Shown piece by piece: positions 48,833 to 55,608 of a stretch of 64,000 bases of DNA (the first letter of the stretch is position 1; every line of letters starts with the position of its first letter). The notes under the pieces are model-generated. The model was not told the origin of the DNA. It was given only the letters and a program-made list of their open reading frames with translations, and did not search any database. Location of the stretch: the sequence record NC_135729.1. One strand, written 5' to 3'. A program made the position numbers and the translations under genes. Source of the stretch: a phage.

Positions 48833-48907
48833 TGGTGGCCCTGGGTGGAATTGAACCACCGTCTGGCGATTATGAGTCGCTTGCTTGAACCTTCCAGCTA
48901 CAGGGCC
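48833..48907 (-). tRNA. tRNA-Met (anticodon CAU; elongator or lysidine-Ile2 not distinguishable)
   Basis: Manual fold: acceptor GGCCCTG/CAGGGCC, anticodon loop CTCATAA, T-arm GGTGG-TTCAATT-CCACC, CCA encoded. Confidence 0.7.
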
Positions 48908-48989: not shown

Positions 48990-49088
48990 GGTGCTAGGCG
49001 GTGGAATCGAACCACCTATGTATTCAACGACTACCTCGTCTATTTTCAGGATTAAAAATCCTCGCCCTTGCCAAAGGGCTTACCTAGC
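48990..49088 (-). ncRNA. atypical 99-nt tRNA-like element (anticodon uncertain)
   Basis: Good acceptor stem (GCTAGGT/GCCTAGC), D-arm (GCCC-TTTGGCAA-GGGC) and canonical T-arm (GGTGG-TTCGATT-CCACC), but a 4-bp anticodon-type hairpin (AGGA-TTTTTAA-TCCT) and about 31 nt before the T-arm; 3' end ACC. Confidence 0.4.
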
Positions 49089-49186
49089 TCAATATGTTGA
49101 CCATGTTGCTAGTCGGCGATGACGACTGTAACATTTGATAATCCGGTTCTGCTTCCGGCTTTCGCTTAATTGCAAGGTCAACAATG

Positions 49187-49277
49187 TGGCGGAGAGTAAT
49201 GGAATCGAACCATCATCGAGTCATCCTCAACGGGACGGTTTTCAAGACCGCTTGAGCACCATTGCTCCCTACCCTCC
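49187..49277 (-). tRNA. tRNA-Ser (anticodon UGA), type II
   Basis: Manual fold: acceptor GGAGGGT/ACTCTCC, anticodon stem GCGGT/ACCGT with loop CTTGAAA, long variable arm, T-loop TTCGATT, CCA encoded. Confidence 0.75.
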
Positions 49278-49391
49278 TTTATAAATTATACTGATAATGA
49301 CACTGATTTTCGAGCAGTTAGTGACTAGTATAAACGACGATAAATATCAATGCCATTATCTGTATTATTTATGCATCTAAAAAATATAAAT

Positions 49392-49478
49392 TTGGTGGGG
49401 AGTGGTGGAGTCGAACCACCCGAGTCGCAATGACAATAGATTTACAGTCTACACCGCTACCTCTACGGGATAACTCCC
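49392..49478 (-). tRNA. tRNA-Tyr (anticodon GUA), type II
   Basis: Manual fold: acceptor GGGGAGT/ACTCCCC, anticodon stem with loop CTGTAAA, long variable arm, T-arm GGTGG-TTCGACT-CCACC, CCA encoded. Confidence 0.75.
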
Positions 49479-49557: not shown

Positions 49558-49654
49558 CACTGGGTGGCTTTCTTTTACACCTTAGCCGCCAGAAAAGGTG
49601 GGAGACCATGTTTACAATATTACACTGTTAAGCAAAGTTTGTCAAGAAAATATT

Positions 49655-52482: not shown

Positions 52483-53037
52483 TTACTCCCCGCTGTCAAT
52501 AGCAAGACTCATTGCAATACGGTATGCCTCTTCTAATGGTAAGAGTCTCCCCCACACATCCCAACCGACATCAAACTGCCTGCCAAACAACTGCTGTGTG
52601 GTTCCGTGAGCATGACCGAACAGTTGGACTGATCCGTGAGGCTTTCTGTTCCACTTTGCAAACTGGTAATGGCTCATACAGATCAAATTCTTGTTGTGGC
52701 GAAGCTCGTAATAATCTACAACCTCATGACCGAACTCTTTCATAATTCTGACAGTCGTCCTTGTGTCATGGTTACCACGAACAAGAATAATATGTCCGTT
52801 CAACATATTTAGAACATCTGGGAGCAATTTGTTGATATTCTTATCATTAGTGCACGCAATATCTCCCAAGTGAAACACAGTGTCTGCAGGTGACACAACA
52901 GAGTTCCACTCGGCGATGATTCCCGCATTCATACTGTCAAGATTGTGATCATACTGAGATCTGTGTTTTTGACATGAATCAAACTCCATGACCCGCTGGT
53001 GGAGAAAGTGTGTGTCGCTTGTTACAAAGTATTTCAT
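52483..53037 (-). CDS. calcineurin-like metallophosphoesterase (candidate polynucleotide 2',3'/3'-phosphatase)
   Basis: Start moved to the ATG at 53037 (MKYFVTSDTHF...; GAGGA upstream); motifs SDTHF, GDIACTND, GNHD, GHAHG match the metallophosphoesterase signature. Confidence 0.6.
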   Translation of the reverse strand: MKYFVTSDTHFLHQRVMEFDSCQKHRSQYDHNLDSMNAGIIAEWNSVVSPADTVFHLGDIACTNDKNINKLLPDVLNMLNGHIILVRGNHDTRTTVRIMKEFGHEVVDYYELRHNKNLICMSHYQFAKWNRKPHGSVQLFGHAHGTTQQLFGRQFDVGWDVWGRLLPLEEAYRIAMSLAIDSGE

Positions 53038-53044
53038 ACATTCC

Positions 53045-53455
53045 TCATTTAAGTTTAATGCAGTTTTTAAGCTGGCGTTCCATACGATCCACAACCTTGT
53101 CTGGAACATCATGAATGCTTTTATTACCGTGGCGGTTTTCAACCACGATCACGGTATAACTATACCCGTGACTGATTGCCATGTCAACATATTCCTGCAC
53201 ATGTTTTTCTTTTGTAAACGTATTACTTACCACGATACGGTCGTATCCCGTACGCATCATATCTTCTACGTTATCTTTGCACCATTTTGCTGCGAGTGTT
53301 ACTTTACTTGCATCCCAGTTGTAATTGCCGTCATCGTCATACCAGAACATGTCGTTCTCAAAATGTGGATACAGACCTTCTAAAGATAGCGCATTTGCCA
53401 GTGTTGATTTGCCAGACCCTGGCAGACCACGCACGATATATAGCATTTTAGACAT
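53045..53455 (-). CDS. P-loop polynucleotide-kinase-like protein (T4 Pnk kinase-domain-like)
   Basis: Start moved to the ATG at 53455 (GGAGG 7 nt upstream); Walker A GLPGSGKST and downstream VVSNT resemble the T4 Pnk kinase domain. Confidence 0.55.
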   Translation of the reverse strand: MSKMLYIVRGLPGSGKSTLANALSLEGLYPHFENDMFWYDDDGNYNWDASKVTLAAKWCKDNVEDMMRTGYDRIVVSNTFTKEKHVQEYVDMAISHGYSYTVIVVENRHGNKSIHDVPDKVVDRMERQLKNCIKLK

Positions 53456-53483
53456 AGCAACCCTCCGTTTTAATTTTAATGAT

Positions 53484-53512
53484 AGTATACCTAACTGTTT
53501 TGTTAATTTCAA
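53484..53512 (-). promoter_or_regulatory. sigma70-type promoter for the leftward kinase / phosphatase / regulator operon
   Basis: Minus-strand -35 TTGAAA (plus 53507..53512), 17-bp spacer, -10 TATACT (plus 53484..53489), then GGAGG and the ATG at 53455. Confidence 0.45.
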
Positions 53513-53515
53513 GTG

Positions 53516-53545
53516 TTGACACTAGGTTATTTGTGTGGCATGATA
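53516..53545 (+). promoter_or_regulatory. sigma70-type promoter for the rightward RNA ligase / Sir2 operon (divergent from the previous one)
   Basis: Consensus -35 TTGACA at 53516..53521 with a weaker -10 (CATGAT/ATGATA) 17-18 bp downstream; -35 elements of the two promoters lie back to back. Confidence 0.4.
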
Positions 53546-53573
53546 GACTGACAAAATGACAAATGAGGAACGT

Positions 53574-54491
53574 ATGATGAAGTATTTTAATGCAGATGAC
53601 CTAGTAGACAAAGGTCTTGTAACCAGTCGGTATTATCCAGATCTTGGATTAAAGATCTATAAATATGCCAGAAAAGTATTCTACAACAATCTGTGGCATT
53701 TGTCTCCGCGTTTACTGGAGTGCCGAGGTATTGTTGTTGGCAATGAGGGGAATGTTGTGGCATGGCCTTTCACAAAAGTATTCAACTTAGGAGAAAACTC
53801 CACCAACCTACCGGACAGTAAACTTGTTACTGCGGTAGAGAAAAAGAACGGATTCCTCGGTGTGGTATCATCTCATAAAGGTGAACTATTGTTCTCAACA
53901 ACCGGGTCTCTTGATTCTCCATATTGTAACCTTGCAAAGGAAACCATCCAAGAGCAATGTGGTAATTTAGATCTTATCAAGAAGGTTATGGGCAATGAAA
54001 ACATGACATTCATGTTTGAAATTTGTCACCCTTCAGATCCGCATATTGTTCAGGAAGATCATGGCGCATATTTGATAGGTTGCAGATATAATGATTCTGG
54101 AATAATGCTACCAGAAGCAGCTTTAGATGGGATTGCCAAATACCTTGGTGCAAAACGTCCTCACACTGTGCGTGAAATTCCGTTCAGCTATGCAAAAGAA
54201 TTAGCTGCAGAAACAAGAGGTGAAGGGTATATGATTCGTAAGCCTTACTACCCTTATGATCTGCAGCTGAAGATCAAGTCTCCATACTATCTGGCACGGA
54301 AGGCCGTAATGAGGGGTAAAGCTTGGAAGATTTGGGATGATGATATCTTTAAACGTGTTGACGAAGAGTTTTACGGCATGGTAAACTTCATTCGTAGCAA
54401 TTACACAGAGGATGTGTGGAACTGCCTCCTGGAGCAGGAACGCCGTGAGATACTTGATTACTATTTCCACAACGAGAACTATATGCAATGA
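53574..54491 (+). CDS. RNA ligase, Rnl2-like nucleotidyltransferase
   Basis: Motif I-like EKKNGF (T4 Rnl2 EKIHGTN), motif IV EGYMIRKP (T4 Rnl2 EGYVLKP), motif V LKIK; start placed at the ATG preceded by GAGGAA (track ORF starts at 53556). Confidence 0.6.
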   Translation: MMKYFNADDLVDKGLVTSRYYPDLGLKIYKYARKVFYNNLWHLSPRLLECRGIVVGNEGNVVAWPFTKVFNLGENSTNLPDSKLVTAVEKKNGFLGVVSSHKGELLFSTTGSLDSPYCNLAKETIQEQCGNLDLIKKVMGNENMTFMFEICHPSDPHIVQEDHGAYLIGCRYNDSGIMLPEAALDGIAKYLGAKRPHTVREIPFSYAKELAAETRGEGYMIRKPYYPYDLQLKIKSPYYLARKAVMRGKAWKIWDDDIFKRVDEEFYGMVNFIRSNYTEDVWNCLLEQERREILDYYFHNENYMQ

Positions 54492-54846: not shown

Positions 54847-55608
54847 ATGCGACGACTGATTATTATCTCCGGTGCTGGTTTGAGCGCTGAATCTGGTATT
54901 CCCACTTTCCGATCTGGTAGTACTGCAATGTGGGAGAATTTCAGCATAGATGAGGTGTGCAACATCCACACCTTCGCCAAGAACTACTATAAGGTGCATG
55001 ACTTTTACAATGCACGTCGTGTAGCTCTGGGCAGTGTTGATCCTAACCTTGCACATCTCCGGATCGCTGAGTGGTATTCCCGCTGGTCTGGTCGTGTGAT
55101 CAACCTGACCACCAATGTAGATGATTTGCTGGAGCGTGCTGGTGTAAAACATGAAGATATTTTACATGTCCACGGGTATTTGCCTGAAATCACCTATGAA
55201 GATACTGAAGGTAATGATGTAATTAAAAATATAGGGTACACGGAGGTAGATACAGGCAAGTATACCTGGGTTAAGCCCAATGTAGTGTTCTTCGGTGAGG
55301 TTGCTCCTAAGTATACAGACATGTATGACCTGTTGACATCTCTTACCAGCAATGATATGGTGATCCTGGTAGGTTGTTCTAACACAGTTATTAATTTTAA
55401 CTGGGAATTGTTTCCTGCTACTTGTAAAGGCACAAAACTGCTGATTGTAAACAAGTATGATTCGCAGAGTGCAGATGGAAGTGGCATTTCACGTAGCGAC
55501 CTTTATCAATATGAGGATCGCGGGATCCCTGTATGGTTTAACGGTGCTGTTGACGCTTTCTCTGATAAAGCATTTATTGAAACTGTAGAAAACTTTATGG
55601 AACTGTAA
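54847..55608 (+). CDS. Sir2-family (sirtuin-like) NAD-dependent protein lacking the zinc-ribbon module
   Basis: Sirtuin signature SGAGLSAESGIPTFR, NAD-pocket TTNVDDLLERAG, catalytic HG in LHVHG, VVFFGE and LVGCSNTV motifs; no CxxC...CxxC after the HG. Confidence 0.8.
   Translation: MRRLIIISGAGLSAESGIPTFRSGSTAMWENFSIDEVCNIHTFAKNYYKVHDFYNARRVALGSVDPNLAHLRIAEWYSRWSGRVINLTTNVDDLLERAGVKHEDILHVHGYLPEITYEDTEGNDVIKNIGYTEVDTGKYTWVKPNVVFFGEVAPKYTDMYDLLTSLTSNDMVILVGCSNTVINFNWELFPATCKGTKLLIVNKYDSQSADGSGISRSDLYQYEDRGIPVWFNGAVDAFSDKAFIETVENFMEL

What the first reader, a model, noticed from the sequence alone, without database searches (positions are those of the whole stretch)
48990..49088. Atypical 99-nt tRNA-like element within the tRNA cluster
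It has a well-paired acceptor stem, D-arm and canonical T-arm, but the anticodon-position hairpin has only a 4-bp stem (loop TTTTTAA, nominal anticodon UUU) and about 31 nt separate it from the T-arm. No standard tRNA class fits. It could be a pseudo-tRNA, a tRNA with an insertion, or a stable RNase P-processed RNA like T4 species 1 and 2.
Basis: seen in the sequence. Interest (0 to 1): 0.5.

Follow-up and report, generated by a model that had tools for sequence, protein, structure and literature searches.

The report
Conserved five-armed tRNA look-alike in phages
This is a real, evolutionarily conserved tRNA-shaped RNA gene in the tRNA operon of rV5-like phages that almost certainly is not an ordinary decoding tRNA; its job is unknown, and databases label it four different ways or not at all.

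Summary
On the minus strand (49088 to 48990) lies a 99-nt RNA with a 7-bp acceptor stem, D arm, canonical T arm, a short hairpin at the anticodon position and 31 nt before the T arm. The window is an rV5-like Vequintavirus.

I found 34 distinct versions across five Vequintavirinae genera and uncultured relatives, and none in 185,579 bacterial species genomes. Across them, 98.7% of stem positions pair, 13 of 22 pairs show compensatory changes, and the tertiary elbow pair G19:C56 switches cleanly to U19:A56. So it is a selected, L-shaped RNA and not a decaying pseudogene.

It is not a standard decoder. The anticodon-position arm is 1-3 nt short in every lineage. Its loop varies in length (5-8 nt) and sequence (UUU, UAU, UCC, GCC, UCA). 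A8:U14 replaces U8:A14. Conserved single-stranded linkers flank the extra hairpin.

It sits in a promoter-driven tRNA operon, so maturation like a tRNA is likely but inferred. Function is unresolved. My best guess is a non-decoding tRNA mimic. The window's copy carries the nominal lysine identity set (A73 + UUU), so an odd decoding tRNA-Lys cannot be excluded.

The parts
48990..49088 (-). Whole tRNA-like RNA gene (99 nt as called; RNA index 1 = 49088)
   Evidence: ARAGORN tRNA-???. Rfam RF00005 at 31.0 bits. Family covariance model R1 at 106.8 bits, E = 4e-25, versus 28 bits or less for ordinary tRNAs.
49082..49088 (-). Acceptor stem, 5' strand (GCUAGGU)
   Evidence: Pairs with 48993-48999. 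100% paired in 34 sequences, with 5 of 7 pairs showing compensatory changes.
49080..49081 (-). Positions 8-9 (A8 A9). A8 with U14 replaces the near-universal U8:A14.
   Evidence: A8 + U14 in 34/34 family members, versus 1/173 genuine tRNAs from the same phage loci.
49064..49079 (-). D arm: stem GCCC/GGGC, loop UUUGGCAA (G18 G19)
   Evidence: Stem 100% paired, 3 of 4 pairs compensatory. G19 covaries with T-loop C56: G:C in 25 sequences, U:A in 9, no exceptions.
49048..49062 (-). Hairpin 1 at the anticodon position (AGGAU-UUUUA-AUCCU, or 4 bp + UUUUUAA with nominal anticodon UUU)
   Evidence: Stem covaries (3 of 5 pairs). Loop length and sequence differ between lineages. The N26-43 segment is 15-17 nt where a tRNA has 18.
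49041..49047 (-). Linker 1 (G-AAAAUA), single-stranded, conserved
   Evidence: GAAAA in 33/34 and UAAAA in 1/34. It was not part of either search pattern.
49026..49040 (-). Hairpin 2 (GACGA-GGUAG-UCGUU), the extra arm
   Evidence: Predicted in the MFE fold. A-U changes to G-C in Av-05/TH18. Other lineages have different hairpins here, with covarying stems around subtype-specific conserved loops.
49017..49025 (-). Linker 2 (GA-AUACAUA), single-stranded, conserved
   Evidence: AUACAUA is invariant in all 34. A scan with a 5'-half pattern that does not include it recovered only contigs that also carry it.
49000..49016 (-). T arm (GGUGG-UUCGAUU-CCACC), canonical T loop
   Evidence: 100% paired in 34 sequences. 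C56 covaries with G19.
48993..48999 (-). Acceptor stem, 3' strand (GCCUAGC)
48990..48992 (-). Discriminator A73 plus CC. The next base is U, so CCA is not fully encoded.
   Evidence: Sequence. Other genera have U73 (C73 in one sequence) plus an encoded CCA. Av-05/TH18 have U or C followed by ACA.
49617..49645 (-). Sigma-70-type promoter of the tRNA operon (TTGACA-17-TAATAT). It presumably drives Arg-Tyr-Ser-element-Thr-Met-Pro (inferred).
   Evidence: Consensus scan, 10 of 12 matches. The homologous position is annotated P(tRNA) in the rV5 record.

Best explanation
This is the gene for a tRNA-shaped non-coding RNA that is a conserved family in Vequintavirinae phages.

Shown: it folds as an L-shaped cloverleaf with five arms. 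These are the acceptor stem, the D arm, a short hairpin where the anticodon arm should be, an extra hairpin set between two conserved single-stranded linkers, and a canonical T arm. The D-loop/T-loop elbow is under selection. The frame is constant, while the two hairpin loops and the discriminator base differ by lineage.

Inferred: it is transcribed from the tRNA-operon promoter. It is cut out by RNase P and 3' trimming like its neighbours, lying 5 nt upstream of tRNA-Thr here and 2 nt after the CCA of the preceding tRNA in other genera. Here it would be completed by the host CCA-adding enzyme.

Inferred: at family level it does not read codons. Instead it engages proteins that recognise tRNA shape through its acceptor/elbow frame and presents a lineage-specific anticodon-like loop.

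My most likely single mechanism is a tRNA mimic that acts as a decoy or competitor for a tRNA-binding factor. The leading candidate is a host tRNA-targeting defence nuclease. In this window the loop UUUUUAA plus A73 copies the identity set of tRNA-Lys(UUU), a frequent nuclease target.

Sub-probabilities: real selected structured RNA 0.95; not a canonical decoder at family level 0.75; decoy/competitor role specifically about 0.3.
For: Structure and selection: 98.7% of 747 cells pair, against 30-46% when partners are slid. 13 of 22 pairs have compensatory changes. Acceptor, D and T helices are 100% paired. The G19:C56 elbow pair switches to U19:A56 in 9 of 34 sequences with no exceptions (16-sequence set). 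Hairpin 2 stems covary around conserved loops.

Family and range: 34 distinct sequences from the phage database, IMG/VR and metagenomes. Model scores are 81-123 bits, versus 28 bits or less for real tRNAs. The one pattern match in 185,579 bacterial species genomes is not hit by the model.

Not a normal decoder: the N26-43 segment is 15-17 nt, not 18. Loops are UUUUA, UUAUA, CAUCCA, CUUCCA, CAGCCA, CCUCCA, YAUCAAA, AAUCAAG or GUGAUA. A33 appears in most lineages, versus 1/166 genuine tRNAs. A8:U14 appears in 34/34, versus 1/173. No closest isotype was found. ARAGORN. Rfam's tRNA model reaches its threshold only for the rV5 type and is silent for most others.

Operon context: promoter and tight spacing to flanking tRNAs.

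Defence-conflict context: an Rnl1-family RNA ligase, a P-loop kinase and a metallophosphoesterase lie about 3 kb upstream of the tRNA operon. Phage tRNAs are documented counter-measures to anticodon nucleases that often target tRNA-Lys(UUU) (PMC10264068 and PMC11464382, listed; PMC13056530). A73 + U34U35U36 is the bacterial Lys identity set (PMC9976931 Table 1).

Precedent for non-translating tRNA look-alikes: B. cereus tRNA-Other (PMC3399842).
Against: No expression, processing, charging or binding data exist for this RNA, so everything past 'selected structure' is inference.

The decoy idea has no direct support. The hairpin-1 loop follows phage lineage rather than host: E. coli phages 4MG and AV124 carry the Gly-like loops. 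The RNA-repair ligase is found in 661 phage records, most of which lack the element, so it is only context. No loop target was found in the DNA held.

The window's own copy can be drawn with a 7-nt loop, U33 and A37, and 35 of 166 genuine tRNAs tolerate one stem mismatch. So decoding by this particular copy is not excluded.

Phage V18 has lost the element by deletion, so it is dispensable at least in some settings.
Confidence: 0.45

Rival explanations
1. In the rV5 lineage it is a working but structurally odd decoding tRNA-Lys(UUU). LysRS charges it through A73 + UUU. The ribosome uses it like a class II tRNA with an oversized variable arm. Its unusual core (A8:U14, short anticodon stem) makes it a nuclease-resistant spare for host tRNA-Lys, as shown for phage T5 tRNA-Lys against PARIS.
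For: The loop UUUUUAA with U33 and A37, together with A73, equals the bacterial Lys identity set. tRNAscan-based annotations call it tRNA-Lys, AAA. Rfam's tRNA model is just above threshold. Vequintavirus has no other tRNA-Lys. One stem mismatch is common in real tRNAs. There is precedent for defence-evading phage tRNAs (PMC11464382, PMC11555353).
Against: Orthologues in sister genera have 6-nt or A33 loops and 'anticodons' UCC, GCC, UCA and UAU, which is not how orthologous decoding tRNAs evolve. The closest relatives Av-05 and TH18 have UAU with U73 or C73, matching no identity set. The arm is 1-2 nt short even here. A 31-nt variable region with 7-9-nt single-stranded linkers is outside class II geometry. 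CCA is not encoded, although 159 of 173 genuine tRNA calls from these loci end in CCA. The LL12 annotators flagged the isotype as inconsistent.
Confidence: 0.15
2. It is a tRNA mimic aimed at an aminoacyl-tRNA synthetase or another aminoacyl-tRNA user. It is either charged and used outside the ribosome, or it binds and modulates the synthetase, as mascRNA does with GlnRS or as non-proteinogenic tRNA-Gly serves cell-wall synthesis.
For: The discriminator and the loop change together between lineages in ways that match identity sets. A73 + UUU gives Lys in the rV5 type. U73, G1-C72, C2-G71, C35 and C36 give five of six Gly determinants in Seuna- and Mydovirus, where the 4MG (U to G) and Ro1 (A to C) loop changes keep the CC. 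CCA is encoded and G1-C72 and C2-G71 are nearly invariant. Precedents are in PMC9976931 and PMC3399842.
Against: G3-C70 is never present. Loop geometry differs from a real anticodon loop, so synthetase anticodon-binding domains may not read it. Av-05/TH18 and the UCA-loop lineages match no full set. No candidate aminoacyl-transferase is annotated in the genome. Overall sequence is not closest to tRNA-Gly or tRNA-Lys.
Confidence: 0.15
3. It works only in cis, as a processing and stability module of the tRNA operon. It would be an RNase P/RNase E punctuation element or folding chaperone for the polycistronic precursor, released as a by-product like T4 species 1 and 2, with no function in trans.
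For: It always lies inside tRNA clusters next to tRNA-Thr. The same operon has further well-folding non-tRNA spacers, with z = -3.2 and -4.3. T4 has analogous stable RNAs whose function is still unknown. It is dispensable in V18.
Against: A punctuation signal needs only the acceptor/T-arm minihelix. It does not explain the invariant linkers, the invariant A8/U14, D-arm covariation, the elbow covariation, or hairpin-2 loops that stay constant while their stems change.
Confidence: 0.15
4. It is a dead tRNA gene (pseudogene) or a chance tRNA-like fold.
For: Gene finders give it no isotype, and many genome records ignore it.
Against: It is conserved from about 71% to 100% identity across five genera, with 118 compensatory cells and perfect maintenance of three helices and a tertiary pair. 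Model E-values are 1e-18 to 1e-29.
Confidence: 0.02

Closest known systems
Canonical bacterial/phage elongator tRNA (Rfam RF00005)
   Same: 7-bp acceptor stem, discriminator and (C)CA. 4-bp D stem with a GG loop. 5-bp T stem with a UUCGAUU loop. G19:C56 elbow. Located in a tRNA operon.
   Different: A8:U14 instead of U8:A14. The anticodon-position arm is 1-3 nt short, with a 5-8-nt loop that is not conserved. The variable region is 31-41 nt, containing a hairpin between conserved 7-10-nt single strands. No consistent anticodon or isotype.
Phage T4 species 1 and 2 stable RNAs (rnaC, rnaD)
   Same: Non-tRNA RNAs encoded inside a phage tRNA cluster. rnaC has a canonical T arm and an acceptor-like terminal stem. 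Function unknown (PMC9697503).
   Different: No sequence or model similarity. rnaC (139 nt) lacks a D arm and has long hairpins instead. The rnaD MFE fold is no more stable than its shuffles (z = -0.8). The present RNA is much closer to a true cloverleaf.
Bacillus cereus tRNA-Other and other pseudo-tRNAs with non-translational roles
   Same: tRNA-like gene that gene finders label 'Other'. tRNA-Other is poorly aminoacylated with Lys in vitro, is not on polysomes, and has a regulatory role (PMC3399842).
   Different: tRNA-Other is bacterial and chromosomal, lies next to a genomic island, and has standard arm geometry with a Trp anticodon. There is no relation in sequence, and here no functional data exist.
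Class II tRNAs (Leu, Ser, Tyr, Sec) and allo-tRNAs with unusual cloverleaves (PMC5389517)
   Same: An extra base-paired arm between the anticodon and T arms. Henunavirus-type copies score best on the tRNA-Sec model and are annotated as tRNA-sup(tca).
   Different: 7/5 acceptor/T configuration, not 8/5, 8/4 or 9/3. 4-bp D stem. C2-G71 is an antideterminant for SerRS, and U73 fits none of the class II identities. The extra arm is held on long single-stranded linkers. Sec-model scores of 36-38 bits are below the gathering score of 47.
Defence-evading phage tRNAs (T5 tRNA-Lys versus PARIS; T5 tRNA-Tyr versus retron PtuAB)
   Same: Phage-encoded, in tRNA clusters. The nominal UUU/A73 Lys identity in this window matches a common nuclease target.
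   Different: Those are canonical, decoding tRNAs with point differences in the anticodon stem-loop. This RNA has a non-canonical architecture, and no defence phenotype has been tested.

Membership tests
Canonical decoding tRNA | 7-bp acceptor stem closed by a discriminator and 3' CCA | tested here: met
   Acceptor stem 100% paired in 34 sequences. CCA is encoded in Seuna-, Mydo- and Henunavirus and type C. In the window only 'ACC' is encoded before a U, so CCA would need host completion.
Canonical decoding tRNA | D arm and T arm forming the elbow (G18G19 with psi55-C56) | tested here: met
   The G19:C56 pair is G:C in 25 sequences and U:A in 9, with no mismatches.
Canonical decoding tRNA | U8:A14 core pair | tested here: not met
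   A8 + U14 in 34/34. U8 + A14 in 126/173 genuine tRNAs from the same loci, and A8 + U14 in 1/173.
Canonical decoding tRNA | 17-nt anticodon arm (5 bp + 7-nt loop, U33, purine 37) with the anticodon conserved among orthologues | tested here: not met
   N26-43 is 15-17 nt instead of 18. Loops are 5-8 nt. A33 occurs in most lineages, versus 1/166 genuine tRNAs. Nominal anticodons are UUU, UAU, UCC, GCC and UCA. For the window copy alone the test is inconclusive, because a reading of 4 bp + UUUUUAA is possible.
Canonical decoding tRNA | Variable region of 4-5 nt, or a class II arm emerging directly from the core | tested here: not met
   31 nt here and up to 41 nt elsewhere: linker GAAAAUA, a hairpin, then linker GAAUACAUA.
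Canonical decoding tRNA | Recognised by standard tRNA models | tested here: inconclusive
   In the window, RF00005 scores 31.0 bits against a gathering score of 29, and ARAGORN gives '???'. Across the family, ARAGORN. There is no RF00005 hit at E <= 0.01 in six of eight diverged loci tested (Seuna-, Mydo-, Avunavirus and two metagenomic). The other two score 36-38 bits on the Sec model only, below its gathering score of 47.
Canonical decoding tRNA | Aminoacylation and use on the ribosome | not testable with these tools
   Needs charging assays and polysome profiling.
Selenocysteine tRNA / opal suppressor | 8/5 (bacterial) acceptor/T helices, 6-bp D stem, G73, UCA anticodon in a 7-nt loop with U33 | tested here: not met
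   7/5 helices, 4-bp D stem, U73 and A33. UCA occurs only in Henunavirus and type C. RF01852 scores 36-38 bits against a gathering score of 47. Hena1 nevertheless annotates it as tRNA-sup(tca).
T4 species 1/2 stable RNAs | Encoded within a phage tRNA operon, non-tRNA in size and shape | tested here: met
T4 species 1/2 stable RNAs | Homology in sequence or structure to rnaC/rnaD | tested here: not met
   Model R1 finds only tRNA-Thr and tRNA-Leu in the T4 locus (23-24.5 bits) and nothing at rnaC or rnaD. BLAST with the element hits no T4-like phage.
T4 species 1/2 stable RNAs | Released by RNase P and accumulates as a stable RNA | not testable with these tools
   Needs northern blots, small-RNA sequencing and in vitro RNase P assays.
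tmRNA | tRNA-like domain plus a tag-peptide reading frame, with a G3:U70 alanine identity | tested here: not met
   ARAGORN reports no tmRNA. The 3:70 pair is C-G, U-A or A-U. There is no room for a tag ORF.
Decaying pseudo-tRNA | Loss of pairing and no conservation beyond close relatives | tested here: not met
   The opposite is seen.

The most novel reading that the evidence does not exclude
A modular, tRNA-shaped counter-defence RNA. It has a constant acceptor/elbow/junction frame that host tRNA machinery matures. On it sit exchangeable 'identity cassettes' (the hairpin-1 loop plus the discriminator) that impersonate different host tRNAs: Lys in rV5-like phages, Gly-like in Seuna- and Mydovirus, and a Sec/opal-like loop in Henunavirus. 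It cannot itself enter translation. It would soak up or inhibit tRNA-targeting immune nucleases, or a synthetase. This would also give a first functional model for the 50-year-old puzzle of the 'species' RNAs in phage tRNA clusters.
Probability: 0.2. Interest if true: 0.8.

Novelty: new variant of a known kind. Interest (0 to 1): 0.55.

Why it matters
Phage tRNA genes have recently been recast as weapons against bacterial tRNA-cleaving immunity. This is a conserved tRNA look-alike that keeps everything needed to be matured like a tRNA but has lost canonical decoding geometry, so it is a natural candidate for a new kind of player in that conflict.

It also has practical value. The family is a clean, testable case, with about 190 cultured phages carrying it, including members of the BASEL collection that grow on E. 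coli K-12.

The finding also exposes an annotation problem. One orthologous RNA is labelled tRNA-Lys, tRNA-OTHER, tRNA-TERM or 'hypothetical protein', or is missed altogether. That distorts tRNA counts and claims about suppressor tRNAs. A dedicated covariance model would fix it.

Tried and rejected
1. ARAGORN's own fold (stem AUUUU/AAAAU, 8-nt loop, 'anticodon' AUCC). Rejected because the stem is broken in Av-05/TH18 and impossible in other genera, whereas the hairpin-1 fold covaries.

2. Descent from tRNA-Gly or another identifiable isotype. Comparison of the acceptor and T arms with 173 genuine phage tRNAs gave no favoured parent. The best matches were Val, Ser, Thr and Cys at 23-26 of 33 positions, and Gly was not near the top.

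3. A general kissing interaction between the two hairpin loops. Seunavirus copies have UCCA facing UGGA, and 4MG has GCCA facing UGGC. But loop types combine independently across lineages, and types B, C and rV5 show no complementarity. I keep this only as a note.

4. Antisense targets of the conserved hairpin-2 loops. Only the element's own opposite strand matched exactly in 428 kb of held DNA. Whole genomes were not scanned.

5. Homology to T4 rnaC/rnaD. No model or BLAST hit.

6. Presence in bacteria or prophages. The single pattern match, in a Sporosarcina genome, is not hit by the model.

7. Protein-coding reading on the + strand. Only TTG- or GTG-initiated ORFs of 59 aa or fewer.

8. Specific linkage to the RNA-repair genes. 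The ligase is present in Seuna- and Mydovirus too, but also in hundreds of unrelated phages.

9. Literature. Seven full-text searches found no description of this RNA.

10. Wasted effort. Two annotation calls (69, 70) returned only structural genes.

Full report
**What is there.** The window is an rV5-like Vequintavirus of E. coli, 99% identical over the tRNA region to phages EdH4 and rV5. On the minus strand a sigma-70-type promoter (TTGACA-17-TAATAT, 49645-49617, annotated as P(tRNA) in the rV5 record) precedes tRNA-Arg, tRNA-Tyr, a 115-nt spacer, tRNA-Ser, a 98-nt spacer, the element, tRNA-Thr, tRNA-Met and tRNA-Pro. The element occupies 49088 to 48990. ARAGORN reports it as 'tRNA-???' with a 4-base anticodon. 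Rfam's tRNA model matches at 31.0 bits against a gathering score of 29, with a long insertion before the T arm. The minimum-energy fold (-37 kcal/mol, z = -3.8) has five helices: acceptor stem, D arm, hairpin 1, hairpin 2 and T arm. Two things need adding: the element is on the minus strand, and the '31 nt' contain a second hairpin flanked by single-stranded linkers.

**It is a conserved family.** BLAST with the element found 123 near-identical rV5-type records plus diverged copies. BLAST with a Salmonella-phage copy found 188 records in Escherichia, Klebsiella, Salmonella, Cronobacter, Erwinia, Enterobacter, Raoultella and Proteus phages, all Vequintavirinae. Pattern scans of IMG/VR and of metagenomes added uncultured relatives on contigs of about 140-150 kb. 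The same pattern in one genome from each of 185,579 bacterial species matched once, at a site the family model does not recognise.

In total there are 34 distinct sequences. A covariance model built from 16 of them scores family members at 81-123 bits and ordinary tRNAs at 28 bits or less. A scan with a pattern from the 5' half, independent of the 3' motif used first, recovered the same contigs and one chance match.

**The fold is under selection.** On the 34-sequence alignment 98.7% of cells form standard pairs, against 30-46% when the 3' partners are slid by 1-3 columns. 13 of 22 pairs carry compensatory changes. The acceptor, D and T helices are paired in every sequence (the independent MAFFT alignment of 16 sequences gives 99.7% and 10 of 22).

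The most telling result is tertiary. Copies with D-loop UUUGGCAA have T-loop UUCGAUU, and copies with UUUGUCAA have UUAGAUU. That is G19:C56 in 25 sequences and U19:A56 in 9, with no exceptions. This is the pair that locks the tRNA elbow, so the RNA folds into an L shape. Hairpin 2 differs between lineages but is always a helix. In one subtype the stems GUC/GAC, GCC/GGC, AGCG/CGCU and UUCCU/GGGAA surround an almost constant 12-nt loop GAACUAACAGUA. In another subtype, different stems surround UUUUAGG. In the rV5/Av-05 group A-U changes to G-C. A decaying pseudogene or a chance fold is excluded.

**It is not an ordinary decoding tRNA.** Several features point the same way.
- From N26 to position 43 a tRNA has 18 nt; this family has 15-17 in every lineage.
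- The hairpin-1 loop is UUUUA or UUAUA (rV5, Av-05), a 6-nt CAUCCA, CUUCCA, CAGCCA or CCUCCA (Seuna-, Mydovirus), a 7-nt YAUCAAA or AAUCAAG (Henunavirus and uncultured type C), or GUGAUA. The nominal anticodon therefore changes among UUU, UAU, UCC, GCC and UCA.
- Position 33 is A in most lineages, whereas 155 of 166 genuine tRNAs from the same loci have U33 and one has A33.
- All 34 copies have A8 and U14, the reverse of the near-universal U8:A14. Among 173 genuine tRNAs from these loci one has that combination.
- The extra hairpin sits between GAAAA(UA) and AUACAUA linkers that are conserved throughout. This is unlike the directly emerging variable arm of class II tRNAs.
- No isotype stands out as a parent.

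Standard tools mostly fail on the family. ARAGORN of 34. Rfam's tRNA model reports nothing at E <= 0.01 in six of the eight diverged loci tested. The Henunavirus and type C copies reach only 36-38 bits on the tRNA-Sec model, whose gathering score is 47. GenBank records consequently label the same orthologous RNA tRNA-Lys, tRNA-OTHER, tRNA-TERM/sup(tca) or 'hypothetical protein', or leave it unannotated.

**How it probably works.** This part is inferred, not shown. The RNA is a unit of the tRNA polycistron. Here it lies 5 nt upstream of tRNA-Thr, and in other genera it starts 2 nt after the CCA of the preceding tRNA. With an intact acceptor/T-arm/elbow it should be released by RNase P and 3' trimming. 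Most genera encode U73-CCA. The rV5 group has A73-CC-U and Av-05 has U/C73-ACA, so there the host CCA-adding enzyme would be needed.

The constant frame together with lineage-specific loops suggests a tRNA mimic. The frame would engage general tRNA machinery and the loops would give specificity. According to the identity tables in PMC9976931, the window's copy carries the complete bacterial lysine set (A73 + U34U35U36). The Seuna- and Mydovirus copies carry five of six glycine determinants (U73, G1-C72, C2-G71, C35, C36, but not G3-C70). C2-G71 is an antideterminant for SerRS.

tRNA-Lys(UUU) is a recurrent target of bacterial anticodon nucleases, and phage tRNAs are known counter-measures (PMC10264068, PMC11464382 and PMC11555353; PMC13056530). 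The phage also encodes an Rnl1-family RNA ligase (PF09511, 55.5 bits), a P-loop kinase and a metallophosphoesterase about 3 kb upstream of the tRNA operon. From my own knowledge, that is the enzyme set T4 uses to repair nuclease-cut tRNA-Lys.

My best single hypothesis is therefore a non-decoding tRNA decoy or competitor in that conflict. The support is circumstantial. Loop type follows phage lineage rather than host. The ligase occurs in 661 phage records, most without the element. Phage V18 has deleted the element, together with tRNA-Ser and half of tRNA-Tyr.

**Rivals.**
- An odd but functional tRNA-Lys in the rV5 lineage cannot be excluded, because this copy alone can be drawn with a 7-nt loop, U33 and A37, and one stem mismatch is common in real tRNAs. 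The behaviour of the orthologues argues against it.
- A synthetase-directed mimic, or a charged but non-ribosomal RNA, fits the joint change of discriminator and loop. It lacks any partner gene.
- A purely cis-acting processing module would not explain the conserved linkers, D arm, elbow and hairpin-2 loops.

**Comparison with known things.** The closest analogy is the pair of stable 'species 1 and 2' RNAs in the T4 tRNA cluster. rnaC also has a canonical T arm and a terminal stem, and their function was still unknown in 2022 (PMC9697503). There is no homology. B. cereus tRNA-Other is a precedent for a non-translating tRNA look-alike with a regulatory role (PMC3399842). The family is not Sec-like, allo-tRNA-like or tmRNA-like on the defining features tested.

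I found no publication describing it. Genus summaries count '5 tRNAs' for Vequintavirus (PMC6563267), which leaves it out.

**Verdict.** It is a new structural variant of a known kind (tRNA-like or pseudo-tRNA RNAs), well supported as a real and selected RNA family, with function open. Interest is moderate to good, because it is conserved, experimentally tractable and sits in an active field.

Noticed in passing
window 49089-49186 (minus strand): The 98-nt spacer between tRNA-Ser and the element folds into a closed multi-branch structure (8-bp closing stem UGUUGACC/GGUCAACA with three inner hairpins), -27.7 kcal/mol, z = -3.2. It may be another non-tRNA structured RNA in the operon.
   Followed up: partly
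window 49278-49392 (minus strand): The 115-nt AT-rich spacer between tRNA-Tyr and tRNA-Ser forms a long hairpin, z = -4.3. It contains a promoter-like site, TCGAAA-17-TATAAT, at 49313-49285.
   Followed up: no
window 49187-49277 (minus strand): The phage tRNA-Ser(UGA) is itself atypical. It has A at position 8. Its only Rfam hit shown is the tRNA-Sec model at 41.5 bits, below that model's gathering score. The rV5 record notes it was found only with ARAGORN. BASEL records omit it.
   Followed up: no
window 52483-54491: An RNA healing-and-sealing gene set: metallophosphoesterase (52483-53142, -), P-loop kinase (53045-53512, -) and T4 Rnl1-family RNA ligase (53556-54491, +). A SIR2-family protein follows at 54847-55608 (+). 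One record names the ligase's neighbour a 'cyclic-phosphate processing receiver domain' protein.
   Followed up: partly
L005 (Escherichia phage V18) about 955-1043: A deletion has fused the 5' half of tRNA-Tyr to the last 42 nt or so of the element. It removed tRNA-Ser and most of the element and left a chimera whose ends cannot pair.
   Followed up: partly
L018 (Raoultella phage Ro1) 203-595: An HNH homing-endonuclease gene is inserted between tRNA-Thr and the element. This recalls segB inside the T4 tRNA cluster.
   Followed up: no
L004 1607-1796, and the equivalent stretch of L013-L017: In Seuna- and Mydovirus a conserved spacer of about 190 nt follows the element, before tRNA-Leu. In KB57 and AV124, Rfam also reports unannotated tRNA-like hits just after tRNA-Leu (L019 947-1025 and L021 974-1052, 34.9 bits).
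   Followed up: no
phage database records MG0656xx: Eighteen records named 'Campylobacter phage' with host C. jejuni are 97-99% identical to E. coli rV5-like phages across this region. This suggests mislabelled hosts or contamination.
   Followed up: no
window 48833-48907 (minus strand): The CAU-anticodon tRNA is annotated tRNA-Met in most records but tRNA-Ile (ATA) in the BASEL record. Whether it is a lysidine-modified tRNA-Ile2 is unresolved.
   Followed up: no
L012-L017, L019 (Seunavirus-type hairpin-2 copies, including Mydovirus KB57): The hairpin-1 loop UCCA is complementary to UGGA in or next to the hairpin-2 loop. In 4MG the two read GCCA and UGGC, a possible compensatory change in a loop-loop contact. 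It is not seen in the other subtypes.
   Followed up: partly
alignment A3, columns 16 and 98: There is a second D-loop/T-loop covariation: U/U in 29 sequences and G/C in 5. It is confined to one lineage (type C), so it is a single event.
   Followed up: no
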